The notes below the pieces were generated by a model. The model made no database searches. It was given only the letters and a program-made list of their open reading frames with translations, and was not told where the DNA came from. A program made the translations under genes and the position numbers. From Bilabrum cf. latius (lineage: Eukaryota): DNA of 64,000 nucleotides. This document shows positions 1 through 9,362 of the stretch, one piece after another (position 1 is the stretch's first letter; each line of letters starts with the position of its first letter). Where the stretch lies: positions 930,001-994,000 of the forward strand of contig OZ237746.1 of NCBI GenBank assembly GCA_965178125.1. The letters are read 5' to 3'.

Positions 1-1
1 T

Positions 2-535
2 AGTGATATTCGTGTTCTCCTCCAAACTCCACCAAATATTAAGGGGTTTCTTCCTACGTCGGTAAACATCGTTCCATATACAGAATTAGGATAGTACAAT
101 AGTATTGATGGATTATTTAGTCGTTGTAATTGTTGTATCATTCTATACCAAGAAGAAATAAACTCTGGTCATTGGGTTTGCTTATTTAAGCGTAATAAAA
201 CAATATACTTCTTTGACAGTTACGGAATTCGTCCTGATAGGCAATAGAGTACGATGAGTGACGCCGTCCGGAAACGTTTTTATGAAGACCCTGAACTAAT
301 ACATTTAATGTATCATTCTCCGTATAAGATTGACTATAACCCATATTAGTTTTAGGCGGATGGAATGGATATAGCAACCTGCGGGAGACATTGTATAGTT
401 CGTCTTTGGAATAGGGGAAAAAACGCTGATTAGTATAAAAAGTGGGTGGATAAGGTTTGTAAGAAACATACATTAAATCCTGATGAATTAGTGTATTTAT
501 TGACGTATCATCTTAATGATATTAAGTCCCCATAA
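2..535 (+). CDS. Virophage/Polinton-type maturation cysteine protease (adenain/Ulp1-like, clan CE), 5'-truncated by the window; open only if TAG is read as sense (Gln)
   Basis: Manual translation of frame 2: SDIRVLL...IVPYTELG*YNSIDGLF...CIILYQEEINSGHWVCLFKRNKTIYFFDSYGIRPD...IDYNPY*F*ADGMDIATCGRHCIVRL...NPDELVYLLT...KSP-TAA. Catalytic H (GHW), D (FDSYG) and C (TCGRHC) are present. In-frame TAG at 92, 245, 347, 353 and 431; no frameshift. Confidence 0.88.
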
Positions 536-683
536 AATGCTGATGCTTCTTGCTGTTAATATGGTGTGATTTATTGTATACTTTATATTTCCCACCACAA
601 GGGCAAAGAATTGTTTGCTTTAAAGTATCTTTATTTTTCTTGTAATATTCTTGATTATATTCCTGTGTATTTCTCACGGGCAT
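522..683 (-). CDS. Small basic protein with a C2H2-like Zn finger (CPCGG...H..SKKH), typical of small ORFs in giant viruses, virophages and Polintons
   Basis: MPVRNTQEYNQEYYKKNKDTLKQTILCPCGGKYKVYNKSHHINSKKHQHFMGT-TAA. ATG at 683 (the ORF track extends to 707). It fills the gap between protease and integrase, and its stop overlaps the protease 3' end. Confidence 0.7.
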   Translation of the reverse strand: MPVRNTQEYNQEYYKKNKDTLKQTILCPCGGKYKVYNKSHHINSKKHQHFMGT

Positions 684-715
684 ATCTCTGTTATATACTA
701 AGAACAAAGTACTTA

Positions 716-1639
716 ATGGAAAAGTATTTTGACGAAGTTCATACTCCTAGAAACCCTGAGCGGTCATATAGAAAAGTTTAGGCCTATGGAAATGCGGATA
801 TTTACTCTGCAGATTTAATTGACCTCTCAAGATTTGCTGAGTATAATGATAATTATAAATGGATACTCTCATTAATTGATATTATTTCAAGAAAAGGGAT
901 TGCTATACCACTCAAGAATAAACTAGCGACTACTGTGTTAAAAGGCTACAAATAGATTGTGGAAGGCTTGGGAAAACAACCTAATAAACTGTGGACTGAC
1001 TAGGGAAAAGAGTTCTATAATAAAACGTTTAAGAAATATCTTTCCAAACACAATACTCACCTGTACTCAACTTTTTCCGGAAAAAAGGCGGTTGTTGTGG
1101 AACGCTTCAATAGAACTATTTTAACCAAATTATTTAAGTCGATGGCTAAGAATAAGACACGACGATGGATTGATTTATTAACTGATGTTATTGTTTCCTA
1201 TAATAATACTGAACATAGCACCATTAAGATGACACCTAACGAATTGTGGGAAAAGGAAAAAGATTTCCAACCAAGTATTAAACGTCACTAGAAAAGCCCT
1301 ATTAAATTCAAGAAGGGCGATATCGTACGAGTAATGTACCCTAAGAAAACATTTGATAAAGGGTATTTACCTAATTGGAGTTGGGACGTCTTCAAAATTA
1401 ATAAGGTATTCTTGACAAATCCAACAACCTATACTTTGACGAATGGGGAAAAGAAGAAATTAGAGGGGAAATACTATGATTGGCAATTAAAGAAAACCGT
1501 GTAGCCTTTTGGGGTCTATAACATCGAAAGAGTTGTAGATACTGAAATGAAAGATGGAATTGAGTATAGTTTTGTGAAATGGGTGGGGTATGATGCTTCG
1601 CATAACAGTTGGATACCGACCAATCAACTAATAGATTGA
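716..1639 (+). CDS. Retroviral-like (rve, DDE) integrase with C-terminal chromodomain, Polinton/Mavirus type, 307 aa if TAG=Gln
   Basis: Manual translation from ATG 716 to TGA 1637-1639: ...YSADLIDL...ILSLIDIISRKG..IPLKNK...PNKLWTD*GKEFYNK...KAVVVERFNRTI...YNNTEHSTIKMTP...FKKGDIVRV...FDKGYLPNWS...YNIERVVD...SFVKWVGYDASHNSWIP. The D-D-E triad is intact. In-frame TAG at 779, 953, 1001, 1289 and 1502; no frameshifts and no internal TAA or TGA. Confidence 0.92.
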
Positions 1640-1707
1640 TTTTTATGGTGTCATCATGGGAATTACAACATTAAATTTTAATTGGAAAATTTTATTTATT
1701 CTTTCTA
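1640..1707. repeat. First, interrupted copy of the AT-rich ~166-bp subterminal repeat
   Basis: TTTTTATGGTGTCATCATGGGAATTACAACATTAAATTTTAATTGGAAAATTTTATTTATTCTTTC matches ~8450-8514 and ~8616-8680. In those copies it continues ...AGTCTC, which here resumes at 8185. Confidence 0.85.
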
Positions 1708-1904
1708 ATAATGCTAACGCCGAATGGGGTTCGGGGTTGATGTGGCGATGCGTTCGAGACTCGAACACAGGCTCCGGTCTACCAACGCGAGGTTGCAACC
1801 GCCAGTGCGACCAGCAGCTTGCGAGGCATTCCCTCGTCTCCTTCCTTAGGGAAGGGGGCGGGGCAGCGCGGCAGTGGCCGTTCCGGCTCATGCCGTTGTT
1901 TTGT
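1708..1904 (+). repeat. Split direct repeat A1
   Basis: ATAATGCTAACGCC...CCGTTGTTTTGT, identical by eye to 7823-8019. Confidence 0.95.
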
Positions 1905-2433
1905 TTAGTATTTATGTTCGGTTTGGTGCTCACACGGGTAGTGCTTAACGCCGTGTCAACTATCGCGCGTGTCCATGTGGGTCCGTTCGGCCTACATCGT
2001 GCATCCATCCTCGGCCTACTTGGCGCTCCAGTGGATCCGAACCAATATTTACTTCGATGTGATCCATCTTTCTCGGCACATCGATGGGACTTCGGTCCGT
2101 TGGGCTCGGCTGCTGCTTGCGCCACGGTCTCCCGGGTGTGTGCTCGCCGATGGCATTTTCGCGCGATCTCTGCGTCCCTCCCTTTCGTACTTGTTCCTAC
2201 GCACGGCCATGCATGTAGAAACATATTCAAATGGTTCGATCTTACGGTTTTCCGACGACCCAGCCTTTCCGTTGGCGAGGCGCGCTCCGCTTTTCCGGTC
2301 GCACCTCGAAAGCAACCACTTTCGGCCAGATCAGCCATCGTACCAGGATACAGCACGATTTGCACCTATCGAGTGACTGATCATTTGAATTGTGCAGGGT
2401 GGGCACGTAGTCAGCTTGGACTCCATCGTCCTC

Positions 2434-5400
2434 TGGCTGCCGACGACAGCAGGCTCGGTGAGCCTTCGTCATCGTCCAGACAACCCTGCAGCTCGCACCA
2501 GGCGTGCGTGCAGGAGGTCGAAGCGAGCAGCGCGGTGTGGCGCAGCTCGTAGACGGAGGCCGGCCTGGAGCCTGGTCGGTTGACGCAGCATCAGTGGTGG
2601 GCTGGTGCTGTGTCTTGCGCGGGTGCCGGAGCTTGGCCACGGTGGCCTGCTGCTCCCTGCGCCCCACGCGCAGTTCCTCCCGCTCCGGCGGATGAGTCAG
2701 CAGTGGCACGTTGCCACCGGCTGACGACGACAGCAGGCTCGGTGAGCCTTCGTCATCGTCCAGAAAACCCTGCAGCTCGCACCAGGCGTGCGTGCAGGAG
2801 GTCGAAGCGAGCAGCGCGGTGTGGCGCAGCTCGTAGACGGAGGCCGGCCTGGAGCCTGGTCGGTTGACGCAGCATCAGTGGTGGGCTGGTGCTGTGTCTT
2901 TGCGCGGGTGCCGGAGCTTGGCCACGATGGCCTGCTGCTCCCTGCGCCCCACGCGCAGTTCCTCCCGCTCCGGCGGATGAGTCAGCAGTGGCACGTTGCC
3001 ACCGGCTGACGACGACAGCAGGCTCGGTGAGCCTTCGTCATCGTCCAGAAAACCCTGCAGCTCGCACCAGGCGTGCGTGCAGGAGGTCGAAGCGAGCAGC
3101 GCGGTGTGGCGCAGCTCGTAGACGGAGGCCGGCCTGGAGCCTGGTCGGTTGCCGCAGCATCAGTGGTGGGCTGGTGCTGTGTCTTGCGCGGGTGCCGGAG
3201 CCTGGCCACGATGGCCTGCTGCTCCCTGCGCCCACGCGCAGTTCCTCCCGCTCCGGCGGATGAGTCAGCAGTGGCACGTTGCCACCGGCTGACGACGACA
3301 GCAGGCTCGGTGAGCCTTCGTCATCGTCCAGAAAACCCTGCAGCTCGCACCAGGCGTGCGTGCAGGAGGTCGAAGCGAGCAGCGCGGTGTGGCGCAGCTC
3401 GTAGACGGAGGCCGGCCTGGAGCCTGGTCGGTTGACGCAGCATCAGTGGTGGGCTGGTGCTGTGTCTTGCGCGGGTGCCGGAGCTTGGCCACGATGGCCT
3501 GCTGCTCCCTGTGCCCCACGCGCAGTTCCTCCCGCTCCGGCGGATGAGTCAGCAGTGGCGCGTTGCCACCGGCTGACGACGACAGCAGGCTCGGTGAGCC
3601 TTCGTCATCGTCCAGAAAACCCTGCAGCTCGCACCAGGCGTGCGTGCAGGAGGTCGAAGCGAGCAGCGCGGTGTGGCGCAGCTCGTAGACGGAGGCCGGC
3701 CTGGAGCCTGGTCGGTTGCCGCAGCATCAGTGGTGGGCTGGTGCTGTGTCTTGCGCGGGTGCCGGAGCTGGGCCACGATGGCCTGCTGCTCCCTGCGCCC
3801 CACGCGCAGTTCCTCCCGCTCCGGCGGATGAGTCAGCAGTGGCACGTTGCCACCGGCTGACGACGACAGCAGGCTCGATGAGCCTTCGTCATCGTCCAGA
3901 AAACCCTGCAGCTCGCACCAGGCGTGCGTGCAGGAGGTCGAAGCGAGCAGCGCGGTGTGGCGCAGCTCGTAGACGGAGGCCGGCCTGGAGCCTGGTCGGT
4001 TGACGCAGCATCAGTGGTGGGCTGGTGCTGTGCCTTGCGCGGGTGCCGGAGCCTCGCCACGATGGCCTGCTGCTCCCTGCGCCCCACGCGCAGTTCCTCC
4101 CGCTCCGGCGGATGAGTCAGCAGTGGCACGTTGCCACCGGCTGACGACGACAGCAGGCTCGATGAGCCTTCGTCATCGTCCAGAAAACCCTGCAGCTCGC
4201 ACCAGGCGTGCGTGCAGGAGGTCGAAGCGAGCAGCGCGGTGTGGCGCAGCTCGTAGACGGAGGCCGGCCTGGAGCCTGGTCGGTTGACGCAGCATCAGTG
4301 GTGGGCTGGTGTTGTGTCTTGCGTGGGTGCCGGAGCCTGGCCACGGTGGCCTGCTGCTCCCTGCGCCCCACGCGCAGTTCCTCCCGCTCCGGCGGATGAG
4401 TCAGCAGTGGCACGTTGCCACCGGCTGACGACGACAGCAGGCTCGGTGAGCCTTCGTCATCGTCCAGAAAACCCTGCAGCTCGCACCAGGCGTGCGTGCA
4501 GGAGGTCGAAGCGAGCAGCGCGGTGTGGCGCAGCTCGTAGACGGAGGCCGGCCTGGAGCCTGGTCGGTTGACGCAGCATCAGTGGTGGGCTGGTGCTGTG
4601 TCTTTGCGCGGGTGCCGGAGCTTGGCCACGATGGCCTGCTGCTCCCTGCGCCCCACGCGCAGTTCCTCCCGCTCCGGCGGATGAGTCAGCAGTGGCACGT
4701 TGCCACCGGCTGACGACGACAGCAGGCTCGGTGAGCCTTCGTCATCGTCCAGAAAACCCTGCAGCTCGCACCAGGCGTGCGTGCAGGAGGTCGAAGCGAG
4801 CAGCGCGGTGTGGCGCAGCTCGTAGACGGAGGCCGGCCTGGAGCCTGGTCGGTTGACGCAGCATCAGTGGTGGGCTGGTGCTGTGTCTTGCGCGGGTGCC
4901 GGAGCCTGGCCACGATGGCCTGCTGCTCCCTGCGCCCCACGCGCAGTTCCTCCCGCTCCGGCGGATGAGTCAGCAGTGGCACGTTGCCACCGGCTGACGA
5001 CGACAGCAGGCTCGGTGAGCCTTCGTCATCGTCCAGAAAACCCTGCAGCTCGCACCAGGCGTGCGTGCAGGAGGTTGAAGCGAGCAGCGCGGTGTGGCGC
5101 AGCTCGTAGACGGAGGCCGGCCTGGAGCCTGGTCGGTTGCCGCAGCATCAGTGGTGGGCTGGTGCTGCGTCTTTGCGCGGGTGCCGGAGCTTGGCCACGA
5201 TGGCCTGCTGCTCCCTGCGCCCCACGCGCAGTTCCTCCCGCTCCGGCGGATGAGTCAGCAGTGGCACGTTGCCACCGACTGACGACGACAGCAGGCTCGG
5301 TGAGCCTTCGTCATCGTCCAGAAAACCCTGCAGCTCGCACCAGGCGTGCGTGCAGGAGGTCGAAGCGAGCAGCGCGGTGTGGCGCAGCTCGTAGACGGAG

Positions 5401-7261
5401 GCCGGCCTGGAGCCTGGTCGGTTGACGCAGCATCAGTGGTGGGCTGGTGCTGTGTCTTGCGCGGGTGCCGGAGCCTGGCCACGGTGGCCTGCTGCTCCCT
5501 GCGCCCCACGCGCAGTTCTCCCGCTCCGGCGGATGAGTCAGCAGTGGCACGTTGCCACCGGCTGACGACGACAGCAGGCTCGGTGAGCCTTCGTCATCGT
5601 CCAGAAAACCCTGCAGCTCGCACCAGGCGTGCGTGCAGGAGGTCGAAGCGAGCAGCGCGGTGTGGCGCAGCTCGTAGACGGAGGCCGGCCTGGAGCCTGG
5701 TCGGTTGACGCAGCATCAGTGGTGGGCTGGTGCTGTGTCTTTGCGCGGGTGCCGGAGCTTGGCCACGATGGCCTGCTGCTGCCTGCGCCCCACGCGCAGT
5801 TCTCCCGCTCCGGCGAATGAGTCAGCAGTGGCACGTTGCCACCGACTGACGACGACAGCAGGCTCGGTGAGCCTTCGTCATCGTCCAGAAAACCCTGCAG
5901 CTCGCACCAGGCGTGCGTGCAGGAGGTCGAAGCGAGCAGCGCGGTGTGGCGCAGCTCGTAGACGGAGGCCGGCCTGGAGCCTGGTCGGTTGCCGCAGCAT
6001 CAGTGGTGGGCTGGTGCTGTGTCTTGCGCGGGTGCCGGAGCCTGGCCACGATGGCCTGCTGCTCCCTGCGCCCCACGCGCAGTTCTCCCGCTCCGGCGGA
6101 TGAGTCAGCAGGGGCACGTTGCCACCGACTGACGACGACAGCAGGCTCGGTGAGCCTTCGTCATCGTCCAGAAAACCCTGCAGCTCGCACCAGGCGTGCG
6201 TGCAGGAGGTCGAAGCGAGCAGCGCGGTGTGGCGCAGCTCGTAGACGGAGGCCGGCCTGGAGCCTGGTCGGTTGACGCAGCATCAGTGGTGGGCTGGTGC
6301 TGTGTCTTTGCGCGGGTGCCGGAGCTTGGCCACGATGGCCTGCTGCTCCCTGCGCCCCACGCGCAGTTCCTCCCGCTCCGGCGGATGAGTCAGCAGTGGC
6401 ACGTTGCCACCGGCTGACGACGACAGCAGGCTCGGTGAGCCTTCGTCATCGTCCAGAAAACCCTGCAGCTCGCACCAGGCGTGCGTGCAGGAGGTTGAAG
6501 CGAGCAGCGCGGTGTGGCGCAGCTCGTAGACGGAGGCCGGCCTGGAGCCTGGTCGGTTGACGCAGCATCAGTGGTGGGCTGGTGCTGTGTCTTTGCGCGG
6601 GTGCCGGAGCTTGGCCACGATGGCCTGCTGCTCCCTGCGCCCCACGCGCAGTTCCTCCCGCTCCGGCGGATGAGTCAGCAGTGGCACGTTGCCACCGGCT
6701 GACGACGACAGCAGGCTCGGTGAGCCTTCGTCATCGTCCAGAAAACCCTGCAGCTCGCACCAGGCGTGCGTGCAGGAGGTCGAAGCGAGCAGCGCGGTGT
6801 GGCGCAGCTCGTAGACGGAGGCCGGCCTGGAGCCTGGTCGGTTGCCGCAGCATCAGTGGTGGGCTGGTGCTGTGTCTTGCGCGGGTGCCGGAGCTTGGCC
6901 ACGGTGGCCTGCTGCTCCCTGCGCCCCACGCGCAGTTCCTCCCGCTCCGGCGGATGAGTCAGCAGTGGCACGTTGCCACCGGCTGACGACGACAGCAGGC
7001 TCGGTGAGCCTTCGTCATCGTCCAGAAAACCCTGCAGCTCGCACCAGGCGTGCATGCAGGAGGTCGAAGCGAGCAGCGCGGTGTGGCGCAGCTCGTAGAC
7101 GGAGGCCGGCCTGGAGCCTGGTCGGTTGACGCAGCATCAGTGGTGGGCTGGTGCTGTGTCTTTGCGCGGGTGCCGGAGCCTGGCCACGATGGCCTGCTGC
7201 TCCCTGCGCCCACGCGCAGTTCTCCCGCTCCGGCGGATGAGTCAGCAGTGGCACGTTGCCA
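2434..7261 (+). repeat. GC-rich tandem array, 17 copies of a 283-285 bp unit
   Basis: The same motif recurs at 2504, 2788, 3073, 3356, 3640, 3924, 4208, 4492, 4777, 5061, 5346, 5629, 5913, 6196, 6481, 6766 and 7050. Copies differ by a few substitutions and 1-nt indels. Confidence 0.97.
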
Positions 7262-7677
7262 TTGACTGACGCCCCCTCGTCAGGCTTGCTCCCTACATCC
7301 AGTAGTTTGGAGCACCCTGATTTCCCGCTTTGCGGATGAGTCACTGCGGGTATATTCTCCGGCAGCTGACGATCTCTTGGGCCACATGGTTCCTCGCCCA
7401 GGAACAGGCATGTAGACACAGTGGTAGCCACTCCACTGGCCTACTTGCAGGTTCCCAATCGACTGGTTCTTCCACGGATGTCGCCGTACGTACCTCCTTT
7501 GGCACAACCCGACTGCATAGTCGATGAGTTGTGTCAACGGACTCAACGCCGGCGCGGTTTCGTCCCTGACCTACGGTCGTCGACTCGACTACCGCTATCA
7601 TCGACTGTTTCCACACGTCCTACAGATGGTCCCGACAACCAGTCAACTTCAATGATCAAGGCATGGCGATGTAAGAC

Positions 7678-8184
7678 TTGGCTGATAGTGGAGCGGACGC
7701 GCAACCGACGGTTCTGGTGCTTTCCAACCGACGTCGGCGCGCGGTCTGCTCAGATTGGCCATGCTTTGCCCATGTCTTGATTGAACTGGAGACGAAGTGT
7801 GTCGAGTAAGCATCGTTGCATCATAATGCTAACGCCGAATGGGGTTCGGGGTTGATGTGGCGATGCGTTCGAGACTCGAACACAGGCTCCGGTCTACCAA
7901 CGCGAGGTTGCAACCGCCAGTGCGACCAGCAGCTTGCGAGGCATTCCCTCGTCTCCTTCCTTAGGGAAGGGGGCGGGGCAGCGCGGCAGTGGCCGTTCCG
8001 GCTCATGCCGTTGTTTTGTCCCACCCTCCTCTCCCTGGTTTGGCTGATAGTGGAGCGGACGCGCAACCGACGGTTCTGGTGCTTTCCAACCGACGTCGGC
8101 GCGCGGTCTGCTCAGATTGGCCATGCTTTGCCCATGTCTTGATTGAACTGGAGACGAAGTGTGTCGAGTAAGCATCGTTGCATC
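7678..8184 (+). repeat. Split direct repeats B1 (7678-7822), A2 (7823-8019) and B2 (8040-8184)
   Basis: TTGGCTGATAGTGG...CATCGTTGCATC occurs twice, 362 bp apart, flanking the second copy of A. Confidence 0.95.
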
Positions 8185-8720
8185 AGTCTCTTATAATTGA
8201 CCTGTCAAATCTCTCAATTTTTGGGGGACTTTTCCAAAGGAACTTAAAATACAATTACTAATTGATTTTTCATTTCCTTTTTTAATTTTTATGGTATCAT
8301 CATTGGAATTACAACATTTAATTTTAATTGGGAACTTAATTTTAATATTTCTTTGTATCCTATATTGTCCAAAATTTTCAATCAATTTTTGTGTTTTTAA
8401 TTGGGGAGTTAGAAAACAATTATAATTTGTTTTTTTATTTTCCTTTTAATTTTTATGGTGTTATCATAGGAGTTACAACATATATTTTAATTGGAAAATT
8501 TTATTTATTCTTTCATAGTCTCTTATAATTGACCTGTCAAATCTCTCAATTTTTGGGGGACTTTTCCAAAGGGACTTAAAATACAATTACTAATTAATTT
8601 TTATTTTCCTTTTAATTTTTATGGTATCATCATAGGAATTACAACATATATTTTTAATAGGAAAATTTATTTATTCTTTCATAGTCTCCTTTATTCGACC
8701 GACCAAATCTCTCAATTTTA
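8185..8720. repeat. AT-rich degenerate tandem repeat (~166 bp, about 3 copies), probably part of the viral element's terminal repeat region
   Basis: AGTCTCTTATAATTGACCTGTCAAATCTCTCAATTTT at 8185 and 8517, a variant at 8682, and a more degenerate intervening copy. Confidence 0.85.
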
Positions 8721-9302
8721 ATCTTTGAAAAAGATATCAAAAGAGCGGAGGGCAAAGCCCGAGCATCTTGGGGACTTTTCCAATCCACCGAGAAAACGAA
8801 TACACACCCTTGTTAATCCTTAAAAATTGATTGGAAAATATCAGGAAGGCCTTGTAAGCCCTACTAAGGATTTCCAGCGGATTTGCCCTTATCTGGGAAA
8901 AGTAGGGGAAATCGTTGGAAAAGTTTGGAAAACCCCCTGTTTATCCAACTAAGGGTTTTGCGATACAACGCCGATGACCATGGATTTTGAGGAATTTTTG
9001 GAGTGGATTTGAGCCGTTCAGCCCTACCCCTTTTTCGGGTTCGTGGGAAATCGTCCAGTAAAACCCTTTAAAAGCGTGAACCTGCTACCTCAAAACTCAT
9101 ATGCTGGGAGAAAGTGTGAAAAAGTTAGATATATTCATGAAAATGACATTCTATGAAAAATTGAACGGAGAAGTCCAGTATTTGTAGGGGGCATCGGGAA
9201 TTCTTGGGAATTCTTAAAAATTGATTTGAAAATTTTAGATATATTCACGGAAAACCAAAACCTAAAGAAATATTGAAGAAATGTCCAGTATTAGCTGGGG
9301 GA

Positions 9303-9362
9303 AAAGTGATATTGTGTAGCTCAATCTTTGATTGAGGTACACAATTCACTTTATATACTACT
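9303..9362. other. Subterminal hairpin and putative right terminus (...ATACTACT) of the Polinton/virophage-like element
   Basis: AAAGTGA-T-ATTGTGTA-G-CTCAATC-ttt-GATTGAG-G-TACACAAT-TCACTTT inverted repeat at 9303-9352, then ATATACTACT, then GC-rich sequence. Confidence 0.7.

What the first reader, a model, noticed from the sequence alone, without database searches (positions are those of the whole stretch)
2..1639. Endogenous virus genes written in a UAG=Gln code with UAA still a stop
Seen: the protease (2-535) and integrase (716-1639) are colinear with their families, keep all catalytic residues and have no frameshifts. They contain 10 in-frame TAG codons (92, 245, 347, 353, 431; 779, 953, 1001, 1289, 1502) and no internal TAA or TGA. 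The three genes end in TAA, TAA and TGA. TAG at 353 falls where clan-CE proteases have the oxyanion-hole Gln (YNPY*F*ADGMDIATCGRHC), and TAG at 1001 gives WTD[Q]GKEF. Other Gln codons in these two genes are CAA (7 by my count) with no CAG, while the small antisense ORF does use CAG. Established: random decay yields mixed stop types and indels; most nuclear stop reassignments change UAA and UAG together, and uncoupled UAG-only codes are rare. Inference: this element, and likely its stramenopile-like host whose ribosomes translate it, reads UAG as Gln only. If the host code is standard, the element came from a recoded host or depends on a suppressor tRNA, which would be equally notable.
Basis: partly seen in the sequence, partly recalled or inferred. 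Interest (0 to 1): 0.92.

Follow-up and report, generated by a model that had tools for sequence, protein, structure and literature searches.

The report
Virophage genes using TAG for glutamine
An integrated virophage-like element in a GC-rich eukaryotic genome writes glutamine with the stop codon TAG while keeping TAA and TGA as stops, so either its host cell or a virus-borne tRNA must read the genetic code in a rare way.

Summary
Window 1-1708 is the AT-rich (35% GC) end of a virophage-type element. It holds a Sputnik-V9-like cysteine protease, a small zinc-finger ORF and an rve/chromo integrase. The two larger genes hold 10 in-frame TAG, 0 TAA and 0 TGA in 484 codons. Out of frame the counts are 17, 50 and 34.

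- **Conserved sites:** One TAG sits on the oxyanion-hole Gln, which is Q in 119 of 119 homologues. Another sits on a column that is Q in 69 of 120.
- **Independent contigs:** Contigs from three runs in two studies reproduce the five integrase TAGs exactly.
- **Sister copy:** A diverged sister protease copy keeps all five TAGs. It differs at 13 other codons, 9 of them synonymous, which points to purifying selection.
- **Database protein:** A public protein identical to that sister copy carries Q at all five sites.

Decay, RIP-like mutation and assembly error are therefore unlikely, and TAG is a Gln sense codon in this lineage.

What decodes it is untested. No host gene, whole genome, tRNA gene or RNA data was available. 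The host-code claim is therefore open, at roughly even odds against a virophage- or giant-virus-borne tRNA-Gln(CUA). None of 80 environmental relatives is recoded.

The parts
2..535 (+). Virophage maturation cysteine protease (clan CE fold, Sputnik V9-like). The N-terminus is cut by the window start. Five in-frame TAG at 92, 245, 347, 353 and 431. Stop TAA 533-535.
   Evidence: translation. (325 homologues at E<=0.001). (TAG 353 on a column that is Q in 119/119; H57, D72, C127 conserved). (model pLDDT 89.3; BFVD best hit Sputnik V9, E 1.7e-17, TM 0.89/0.91, 35% id). (PDB: OtDUB, adenain 1nln/1avp, Ulp1). The model was built on the sister protein P0121, which is 97% identical.
525..683 (-). Small 53-aa zinc-finger-like ORF, convergent with the protease and overlapping its 3' end. 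No TAG. Gln = 2 CAG + 2 CAA. Stop TAA (522-524).
   Evidence: Weak Pfam zf-DBF match, E 0.012, below cut-off. tblastn homologues at 42-44% id in 4 of 82 related loci (L067, L069, L072, L079).
716..1639 (+). rve-family integrase with a C-terminal chromo-like domain. Five in-frame TAG at 779, 953, 1001, 1289 and 1502. Stop TGA 1637-1639.
   Evidence: rve 36.5 bits vs cut-off 32.6; Chromo 24.3 vs 25.1. (311 homologues; nearest 55% id). (TAG 1001 on a column that is Q in 69/120). (D33, D95, E129 invariant and kept). (493-1598 reproduced with 0 differences in contigs of 3 runs).
1640..1708 (+). Start of the element's non-coding terminal repeat region, broken off by the retroelement insertion.
   Evidence: The same sequence recurs at 8285-8516, and depth in public runs rises about 40-fold here.
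1709..8185 (+). GC-rich Ngaro-like insertion that interrupts the element. It is not part of the element itself. Layout: A1 1708-1904, an internal part with 17 copies of a 284-bp tandem repeat (2435-7261), B1 7678-7823, A2 7823-8019, B2 8040-8185. No RT or recombinase ORF was seen.
   Evidence: A1=A2 197 nt at 100%; B1=B2 146 nt at 100%. (tandem array). (no long non-repeat ORFs). Layout as described for Ngaro in PMC8547959 (passages).
8186..9360 (+). Continuation of the element's AT-rich non-coding terminal region. It holds 3.2 copies of a 166-bp repeat (8185-8719) and all seven AAAATTGA motifs of the window (8214-9224). The right end is approximate, placed where GC rises.
   Evidence: (7 matches, all here; 1.62 expected in the whole window; 0 of 100 shuffles reach 7). 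(no ORF over 44 aa).

Best explanation
Window 1-1708 plus 8186-~9360 is the right end of an integrated virophage-type element. Its genes are written in a code where UAG is a glutamine sense codon and UAA/UGA are the stops.

Shown:
- The TAG codons are real DNA.
- They lie in otherwise intact, conserved frames. Two fall on conserved Gln columns, including the catalytic oxyanion-hole Gln.
- They have been kept while the gene evolved under purifying selection.

Inferred:
- During expression, UAG is paired by a tRNA-Gln with anticodon CUA. That is the only anticodon that reads UAG but not UAA (as argued in PMC5304391).
- AT mutation pressure then let TAG replace CAG. The split expected from base composition is CAA 6.3, TAG 7.1, CAG 3.6. 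Observed is 7, 10, 0.

Open: which genome supplies that tRNA. My odds are:
- about 0.4 that the GC-rich host cell itself has a UAG=Gln nuclear code, as Iotanema does;
- about 0.35 that the virophage or its helper giant virus carries the tRNA in a standard-code host;
- about 0.1 that the copies are relics of life in another, recoded host.

The confidence given below is for the core claim that TAG is a translated Gln codon of a functional lineage.
For: 1. In frame there are 10 TAG, 0 TAA and 0 TGA in 484 codons, against 17, 50 and 34 out of frame. TAG is as frequent in frame as out of frame, while TAA and TGA are fully excluded.
2. TAG 353 aligns with Q in 119/119 protease homologues, and also in 80/80 IMG/VR relatives by tblastn. 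TAG 1001 aligns with Q in 69/120 integrase homologues. TAG 431 has Q as the plurality residue (32/119). Over 9 usable columns Gln has the best log-odds (1.35, next K at -2.2).
3. A sister copy in runs X4 and X3 covers 1-506 with 16 base differences, none at the five TAGs. Of 13 changed codons, 9 are synonymous and 4 non-synonymous, over 99 synonymous and 405 non-synonymous sites (P about 1.4e-4 under neutrality).
4. Public protein P0121 (178 aa, from one 12,842-bp ENA contig) equals the sister copy's translation at the four amino-acid changes that the contig covers and at its TGA-terminated end. It has Q at all five TAG sites. Its gene caller therefore read TAG as a residue on that contig. This last point is inference, because the contig DNA was not seen.
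5. Contigs of 3 runs from 2 studies reproduce 493-1598 without a difference.
6. No stop-readthrough context is shared by the ten sites. The next base is T 3 times, A 3, G 3 and C once.
7. None of 4 gene ends seen uses TAG as a stop (TAA, TAA, TGA, and TGA in the sister).
Against: - No tRNA of any kind is in the window (ARAGORN 0 genes; no tRNA family among the Rfam matches), so the decoder is unseen.
- There is no RNA or peptide evidence. No RNA holder was listed.
- Seven of the ten TAGs lie on variable columns. Codon 82 of the protease aligns mostly with Leu (83/119) and codon 22 of the integrase mostly with Ile (47/120). The residue assignment therefore rests mainly on two or three columns.
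- Alignment with Q is also what CAG>TAG nonsense mutations would give. Only the sister-copy comparison, over one gene of 506 nt, separates the two readings.
- No diverged sister copy of the integrase was found, so its TAGs lack that test.
- The nearest relatives all use the standard code. None of 80 has an in-frame stop in the protease, and none of the 82 related loci gains much ORF cover with TAG read as sense.
Confidence: 0.83

Rival explanations
1. Virus-borne recoding in a standard-code host. The virophage, in the part left of the window, or its helper giant virus carries a tRNA-Gln(CUA). TAG-bearing genes are then translated only during helper infection. This would be a eukaryotic counterpart of code-15 phages. 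It shares the core claim and differs only in who decodes.
For: - Virophage relatives do carry tRNA-Gln genes. 2 of 82 loci scanned (L042, L046) have tRNA-Gln(TTG).
- PMC6905037 (passage) reports virophage tRNAs that are mostly Gln (6 TTG, 1 CTG) and one ochre suppressor.
- Gln codon use differs between genes. The small zinc-finger ORF has 2 CAG of 4 and no TAG, while protease plus integrase have 0 CAG of 17 and 10 TAG. This recalls the TAG-free early genes of recoded phages (abstract of 10.1101/2021.08.26.457843).
- The terminal region holds 7 copies of AAAATTGA, the early promoter core of mimivirus-type giant viruses (passages). This fits expression under a helper virus.
- The layout of an AT-rich virophage with a ~6.5 kb GC-rich Ngaro-like insertion matches the one described for Cafeteria burkhardae, whose virophages are annotated with the standard code (PMC8547959).
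Against: - No such tRNA was seen. Only about 2.9 kb of the element lies in the window.
- Eukaryotes have a single eRF1 that reads all three stops. Five TAGs per gene would therefore need very efficient suppression (established knowledge; inference).
- No eukaryotic virus with a code differing from its host's turned up in the papers searched.
- The codon-use contrast rests on 4 codons.
Confidence: 0.35
2. Relic of another host. The lineage evolved in, and is translated only in, a different protist that reads UAG as Gln. The copies here entered as virions and cannot be expressed in this genome.
For: - The purifying selection seen could have acted before integration.
- EVEs written in a host's variant code are known for Streblomastix strix (PMC10120064, passage).
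Against: - The family is multi-copy here. The sister protease contig has 21 times (X4) and 11 times (X3) the depth of the unique integrase contig. The terminal repeat has about 40 times that depth.
- Two diverged protease types co-reside in the same runs.
- A host retroelement with 100% identical repeats sits inside the copy, which shows residence but not age.
Confidence: 0.08
3. Decay. The genes are dead, and the TAGs are CAG>TAG (CpA>TpA, methylation- or RIP-like) nonsense mutations.
For: - Every TAG is one transition away from CAG.
- CAG is the most depleted trinucleotide in 1-1720 (4 seen, 10.5 expected).
- Alignment of TAG with Q is expected under this reading too.
Against: - No CAA>TAA, CGA>TGA or TGG>TAG/TGA events: 7 CAA, 3 CGA and 12 TGG remain in frame.
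- No frameshifts.
- CTG, the complement of CAG, is not depleted (16 in the two genes).
- 4 CAG remain out of frame.
- The sister copy keeps all five TAGs with a 9:4 synonymous excess.
- A duplicated rDNA piece in the same window is 100% identical over 1475 nt, so there is no sign of repeat-induced mutation.
- Decay would need 10 of 17 original Gln codons to have been CAG in a gene set where G-ending twofold codons are 22-43%.
Confidence: 0.05
4. Artefact or RNA-level rescue. Either this is a systematic base-calling or assembly error at a modified motif, or the TAGs are bypassed by programmed readthrough or U-to-C editing.
For: Premature stops in endogenous virophages and PLVs have repeatedly turned out to be assembly errors (PMC8547959 and PMC10120064, passages).
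Against: - Contigs built independently from 3 runs of 2 studies agree base for base over 493-1598, and the sister contig agrees at the protease TAGs. The library types of these runs are not on record.
- Errors would not be confined to one stop codon and to Gln columns.
- No common readthrough context was found.
- Editing could not be tested because no RNA run was listed.
Confidence: 0.03

Closest known systems
Code-15 (TAG=Gln) bacteriophages, such as crAss-like phages (PMC9523058 and 10.1101/2021.08.26.457843; abstracts seen)
   Same: A virus genome in which only TAG is read as Gln while TAA and TGA stay stops. TAG is dense in some genes and absent from others.
   Different: Those phages infect bacteria, where RF1 and RF2 split stop recognition, and they typically carry a suppressor tRNA. 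Here the element is a virophage of a eukaryote with a single eRF1, and no suppressor tRNA has been seen.
Nuclear code of Iotanema spirale: UAG=Gln, UAA and UGA stops (PMC5304391; passages)
   Same: The same codon meanings, and the same logic that only a CUA anticodon can separate UAG from UAA.
   Different: That is a cellular code inferred from host transcripts. Here only a mobile element is seen, and the host's own code is unknown.
Endogenous PLV-type elements of Streblomastix strix written in the host's variant code (PMC10120064; passage)
   Same: Integrated capsid-encoding elements whose in-frame stop codons are sense codons, not decay.
   Different: There both TAA and TAG mean Gln, and the host code is known to match. 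Here only TAG is a sense codon and the host code is unknown.
Cafeteria burkhardae endogenous virophages (EMALEs) with Ngaro insertions (PMC8547959; passages)
   Same: - An AT-rich virophage in a GC-rich nuclear genome.
- An rve integrase with a chromo domain near one end.
- A GC-rich insertion of about 6 kb with A1-[..]-B1A2B2 repeats in non-coding virophage DNA.
   Different: - No TAG recoding is mentioned there (terms searched; supplements not seen).
- The protease here is Sputnik-V9-like.
- The insertion here lacks RT and recombinase ORFs and holds a 284-bp tandem array.
- The host was not identified.
Sputnik virophage V9 cysteine protease
   Same: Best structural match (E 1.7e-17, TM 0.89/0.91, 35% identity), with the same His/Asp/Gln/Cys columns.
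   Different: Only 35% identical. The Gln here is written TAG.
tRNA genes carried by metagenomic virophages (PMC6905037; passage)
   Same: Virophages of this broad protease family carry tRNA-Gln genes (L042 and L046). One reported virophage carries an ochre suppressor.
   Different: Those are TTG or CTG anticodons (and TTA), not CUA. Their carriers use the standard code in the protease.

Membership tests
Virophage/adenain-type cysteine protease (clan CE) | Clan CE fold | tested here: met
   AlphaFold model of sister protein P0121 (97% id to the window copy), pLDDT 89.3. BFVD top hit is Sputnik V9, E 1.7e-17, TM 0.9. PDB hits with E<=0.001 are CE proteases (OtDUB, adenain, Ulp1, SdeA DUB, XopD, ChlaDUB2; 12 chains).
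Virophage/adenain-type cysteine protease (clan CE) | Catalytic His, acidic residue, oxyanion Gln and Cys present | tested here: met
   H57 119/119, D72 111/119, Q118 119/119 (written TAG here) and C127 119/119. The assignment of these columns to catalytic roles is by analogy with adenain (recalled) and was not measured in the model.
Virophage/adenain-type cysteine protease (clan CE) | Sequence-profile match to a curated family | tested here: not met
   Pfam gave no family at E<=0.01. The PDB sequence profile search gave 0 hits at E<=1. PHROGs gave 0. Membership rests on fold and on 325 uncurated homologues.
rve (retroviral-type DDE) integrase with chromodomain | rve core domain above Pfam cut-off | tested here: met
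   PF00665, 36.5 bits vs cut-off 32.6, E 6.2e-9.
rve (retroviral-type DDE) integrase with chromodomain | Three invariant acidic residues | tested here: met
   D33 117/120, D95 120/120 and E129 120/120, all kept.
rve (retroviral-type DDE) integrase with chromodomain | Chromo domain | tested here: inconclusive
   PF00385, 24.3 bits vs cut-off 25.1. Many homologues carry a precomputed PF00385 hit.
UAG=Gln-only genetic code (NCBI table 15 type) | In-frame TAG in conserved, otherwise intact genes, with TAA and TGA excluded | tested here: met
   10 TAG, 0 TAA and 0 TGA in 484 codons.
UAG=Gln-only genetic code (NCBI table 15 type) | TAG aligns with Gln in homologues | tested here: met
   Q is the best of 20 residues over 9 columns. 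The signal is decisive at 2 columns (119/119 and 69/120) and weak or contrary at 7 variable columns.
UAG=Gln-only genetic code (NCBI table 15 type) | TAG kept under purifying selection between diverged copies | tested here: met
   Five of five protease TAGs are kept, with 9 synonymous vs 4 non-synonymous codon changes. Tested for one gene only.
UAG=Gln-only genetic code (NCBI table 15 type) | TAG not used as terminator | tested here: met
   0 of 4 gene ends seen. The sample is very small.
UAG=Gln-only genetic code (NCBI table 15 type) | Cognate tRNA with anticodon CUA | tested here: not met
   0 tRNA genes in the 64-kb window and no tRNA family among the Rfam matches. The rest of the element, the host genome and any helper virus were not available.
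UAG=Gln-only genetic code (NCBI table 15 type) | Altered eRF1, or peptides with Q at UAG | not testable with these tools
   No host genes, RNA or proteome were at hand.
Virophage (capsid-encoding element with MCP, penton, ATPase and PRO) | Morphogenesis module besides PRO | not testable with these tools
   The window starts inside the protease gene and the upstream part is outside it. The 80 protease relatives are IMG/VR viral contigs of 4-27 kb.
Ngaro (DIRS-order tyrosine-recombinase retrotransposon) | Split direct repeats A1-[internal]-B1A2B2 | tested here: met
   A1 1708-1904 = A2 7823-8019 (100%). B1 7678-7823 = B2 8040-8185 (100%).
Ngaro (DIRS-order tyrosine-recombinase retrotransposon) | RT and tyrosine recombinase ORFs | tested here: not met
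   The internal part is a 17-copy 284-bp tandem array with no long non-repeat ORFs. I therefore call it Ngaro-like and non-autonomous, not a full member. The ORFs were not scanned against Pfam.

The most novel reading that the evidence does not exclude
The host uses the standard code, and the virophage or its helper giant virus brings its own tRNA-Gln(CUA). TAG codons in genes such as the integrase and the protease then act as a translational lock. Integrated copies stay silent until a giant virus infects the cell and the suppressor appears. This would be the first eukaryotic virus system with a code of its own, a counterpart of code-15 phages. It would also extend the known virophage habit of carrying tRNA-Gln genes.
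Probability: 0.33. Interest if true: 0.93.

Novelty: new variant of a known kind. Interest (0 to 1): 0.78.

Why it matters
UAG-only reassignment is very rare in eukaryotes, and I found no report of it in a virophage or polinton-like virus. The full-text searches were made, plus term searches inside PMC8547959, PMC10945749 and 10.64898/2026.07.28.741278. Supplements were not seen.

Either outcome is informative:
- **If the host decodes UAG:** this window flags a new lineage with a UAG=Gln/UAA=stop nuclear code. It would come with a ready-made, TAG-dense marker set, because AT-rich virophage genes use TAG for 10 of 17 Gln codons.
- **If the host is standard:** a eukaryotic virus system carries its own code. 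That bears on how virophage genes are kept silent in the genome and switched on by a giant virus.

There is also a practical point. Such elements are miscalled as pseudogenes by standard-code annotation. Under the standard code, ORFs of 450 nt or more cover 0% of 1-1706. With TAG read as sense they cover 94%.

Tried and rejected
- **Whole genome:** none is held for this window, so no host genes, tRNAs or eRF1 could be examined.
- **Phage collection:** tblastn with the integrase found no match.
- **IMG/VR scans:** the integrase and its nearest relative P0001 found no relative.
- **JGI metagenome scan:** the integrase found only two distant loci (39% and 30% id).
- **RNA evidence:** no RNA holder was listed for the stretch.
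- **Depth hole:** part of 1-448 had no cover in run X1. I draw nothing from that hole.
- **Recoded relatives:**
  - None of the 82 related loci (80 IMG/VR protease relatives and 2 metagenome integrase loci) gains more than 0.18 ORF cover with TAG as sense.
  - 0 of 80 IMG/VR protease relatives have an in-frame stop in the protease.
  - Three AT-rich loci (L057, L062, L082) gain 0.21-0.25 cover with TAA as sense. Their protease genes have no in-frame stop, and the gained ORFs hold many TAAs, so I treat this as noise.
- **RIP-like mutation:** the low-GC patch inside the rDNA array is a 200-N gap plus an exact SSU duplicate, not a mutated copy.
- **Rfam artefact:** the 'microsporidia' SSU hits at 40046-40833 are an artefact of that duplicate.
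- **Protease family by sequence:** Pfam, PHROGs and the PDB sequence search found nothing. Only the fold search placed it.
- **ORFs in 8185-9345:** none over 44 aa.
- **Empty insertion site:** contigs that run on past 1708 with the element's own sequence (table 7) may be junctions between the 166-bp repeat units. I do not count them as proof of an empty site.
- **Host identity:** I read the 18S but had no reference set to place it. I did not try to work out which sample or study the window came from.
- **Supplementary files:** The EMALE gene tables and codon-usage supplement of PMC8547959, and the tRNA supplement of PMC6905037, could bear on whether TAG-interrupted virophages were seen before.
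Full report
**What is there**

The first 1.7 kb of the window is AT-rich (33-35% GC). It is followed by 57-69% GC sequence.

Read with TAG as a residue, it gives three genes:
- A 177-residue open frame from the window edge (2-535).
- A 53-aa ORF on the other strand (525-683).
- A 307-aa ORF (716-1639).

The 307-aa protein is an rve integrase (Pfam 36.5 bits against a cut-off of 32.6). It has a chromo-like C-terminus that scores just under cut-off. It has 311 database homologues, the nearest at 55% identity over its full length. It keeps the three invariant acidic residues D33, D95 and E129.

The 177-residue protein has no curated family by sequence, but it has 325 homologues. A model built on its 97%-identical sister protein has pLDDT 89.3. 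That model matches Sputnik virophage V9 best (E 1.7e-17, TM 0.9, 35% identity). Among solved structures it matches clan CE proteases: OtDUB, adenain and Ulp1.

Its 80 best IMG/VR relatives are viral contigs of 4-27 kb. The small ORF has homologues in 4 of the 82 related loci. The integrase has none among the 80 IMG/VR protease loci. Its only matches are the two metagenome loci that were found with it. The element is therefore virophage-type, with an integration gene of separate origin.

**The element's end and the insertion**

At 1708/1709 the element's non-coding terminal sequence is broken by a 6.5-kb GC-rich insertion:
- It has split direct repeats: A1 1708-1904 = A2 7823-8019, and B1 7678-7823 = B2 8040-8185. 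Both pairs are 100% identical.
- Its interior is 17 copies of a 284-bp tandem repeat.
- This is the A1-[..]-B1A2B2 layout of Ngaro retrotransposons. PMC8547959 reports these as ~6 kb GC-rich insertions in non-coding DNA of Cafeteria virophages (passages).
- No RT or recombinase ORF is present, so I call it Ngaro-like.

The element resumes at 8186 and runs to about 9360:
- It holds 166-bp repeats and no ORF over 44 aa.
- It holds all seven AAAATTGA octamers of the 64-kb window (1.62 expected; 0 of 100 shuffles reach 7). Four of them lie in repeat units, so they are not independent.
- AAAATTGA is the early promoter core of mimivirus and of mesomimiviruses, and it is used by their virophages (passages).

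Beyond the element lies an rDNA array with linked 5S genes.

**The observation**

- In frame there are 10 TAG, 0 TAA and 0 TGA in 484 codons. Out of frame there are 17, 50 and 34.
- If the frames were unconstrained, about 42 in-frame TAA+TGA and 8.5 TAG would be expected.
- TAG is therefore not selected against at all, while the other two stops are fully excluded.
- The chance that ten random in-frame stops are all TAG is about 2e-8.

**Is it decay, mutation bias or error?**

Error is unlikely. Contigs assembled from three public runs in two studies match 493-1598 with no difference. The library types of these runs are not on record.

Decay predicts mixed stops and indels, and there are none. 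A CpA>TpA or RIP-like process predicts several things that are not seen:
- CAA>TAA and TGG>TAG/TGA changes. Instead 7 CAA and 12 TGG remain in frame.
- Depletion of CTG. It occurs 16 times in the two genes.
- Mutated repeats elsewhere. A 1475-nt rDNA duplicate in the window is identical to its source.

- A second copy type, at 21-fold (X4) and 11-fold (X3) the depth of the unique integrase contig, covers 1-506 with 16 differences. None is at the five TAGs.
- The differences fall in 13 codons, 9 synonymous and 4 not, over 99 synonymous and 405 non-synonymous sites. P is about 1.4e-4 under neutrality.
- The frame has therefore been under purifying selection while carrying its TAGs.

It has Q at all five TAG positions. 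I infer that its gene caller chose a TAG-reading code for the whole contig. The contig DNA itself was not available to me.

**Which residue?**

- TAG 353 lies on a column that is Q in 119 of 119 homologues, and also in 80 of 80 IMG/VR relatives. By its place before the catalytic Cys it is the oxyanion-hole Gln of clan CE. That role is recalled, not measured here.
- TAG 1001 is Q in 69 of 120 homologues.
- TAG 431 has Q as the plurality residue (32 of 119).
- The other seven sites are variable, and two align mostly with Leu or Ile.
- Over nine usable columns Gln scores best (1.35; Lys -2.2; all others lower).
- The Gln codon split (CAA 7, TAG 10, CAG 0) is close to what base composition predicts if the three are synonymous (6.3, 7.1, 3.6).

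**How it most likely works**

Shown: TAG is a maintained sense codon, and TAA and TGA are the stops.

Inferred: a tRNA-Gln with anticodon CUA reads it. That is the only anticodon that separates UAG from UAA, as argued in PMC5304391. The ten sites share no readthrough context.

Who supplies the tRNA is open:
- **For the host.** This is the simplest account of dense TAG use at essential sites, given a single eRF1. It also has a precedent in Iotanema (UAG=Gln, UAA stop).
- **For a virus-borne tRNA.**
  - 2 of 82 related loci carry tRNA-Gln(TTG), and PMC6905037 reports the same bias plus an ochre suppressor in virophages.
  - The small ORF uses CAG and no TAG, while the two larger genes do the opposite.
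  - Promoter-like motifs of mimivirus type suggest expression under a helper virus.
  - The whole layout recalls Cafeteria, whose virophages are annotated in the standard code.
- **Tested against both.** No tRNA is in the window. No genome, host gene or RNA data could be reached.
- **My odds.** Host code 0.4, virus-borne 0.35, relic from another host 0.08, decay 0.05, artefact or RNA-level rescue 0.03.

**Comparison and novelty**

The codon meanings equal NCBI table 15, the code of code-15 phages and of Iotanema. Endogenous elements written in a host's variant code are known from Streblomastix, where both TAA and TAG mean Gln (PMC10120064).

I found no paper that reports a virophage or polinton-like virus with TAG-only recoding. 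This rests on the full-text searches and the term searches. Supplements were not seen. None of 80 environmental relatives is recoded. I rate it a new variant of a known kind. Its interest lies in the unresolved decoder.

Noticed in passing
window 1709-8185: Ngaro-like split-direct-repeat retroelement inserted in the virophage's terminal non-coding DNA. The A and B repeats are 100% identical, which suggests a recent insertion. The interior is replaced by 17 copies of a 284-bp GC-rich tandem repeat, with no RT or recombinase ORF. The A repeat has roughly 40-60 times the depth of unique sequence in public runs.
   Followed up: partly
window 8214-9224: All seven AAAATTGA octamers of the window cluster in the element's 1.15-kb terminal region, four on the minus strand and three on the plus strand. 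AAAATTGA is the early promoter core of mimivirus-type giant viruses. None lies upstream of a sizeable ORF.
   Followed up: partly
L042 5701-5772 and L046 6118-6189: Two IMG/VR virophage relatives of the protease carry a tRNA-Gln(TTG) gene. The other 80 loci scanned carry no tRNA. This agrees with the Gln bias of virophage tRNAs reported in PMC6905037.
   Followed up: partly
window 11437-64000: rDNA array on the minus strand with a 9545-bp period (18S 1700 nt, 5.8S, 28S 3157 nt, linked 5S). There is a further 5S at 11437-11555. Two 200-N scaffold gaps (12001-12200, 40836-41035) are each followed by a partial SSU. The partial copy at 39361-40835 is an exact duplicate of SSU positions 226-1700.
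   Followed up: partly
window 525-683 (-): A 53-aa zinc-finger-like ORF (C-x-C ... H-x5-H; weak zf-DBF match) lies between the protease and the integrase. It has homologues in 4 of 82 related virophage loci. It uses CAG and no TAG, unlike its neighbours.
   Followed up: partly
L057, L062, L082: Three AT-rich (32-34% GC) virophage contigs gain 0.21-0.25 ORF cover if TAA is read as sense. Their protease genes have no in-frame stop, so this is probably noise from AT-rich sequence.
   Followed up: partly
window 493-1598 vs 1-506 in runs X3, X4: The protease is shared at 97% identity by a much more abundant element type that diverges completely just after position 511. This points to modular recombination between virophage types in this genome.
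   Followed up: no
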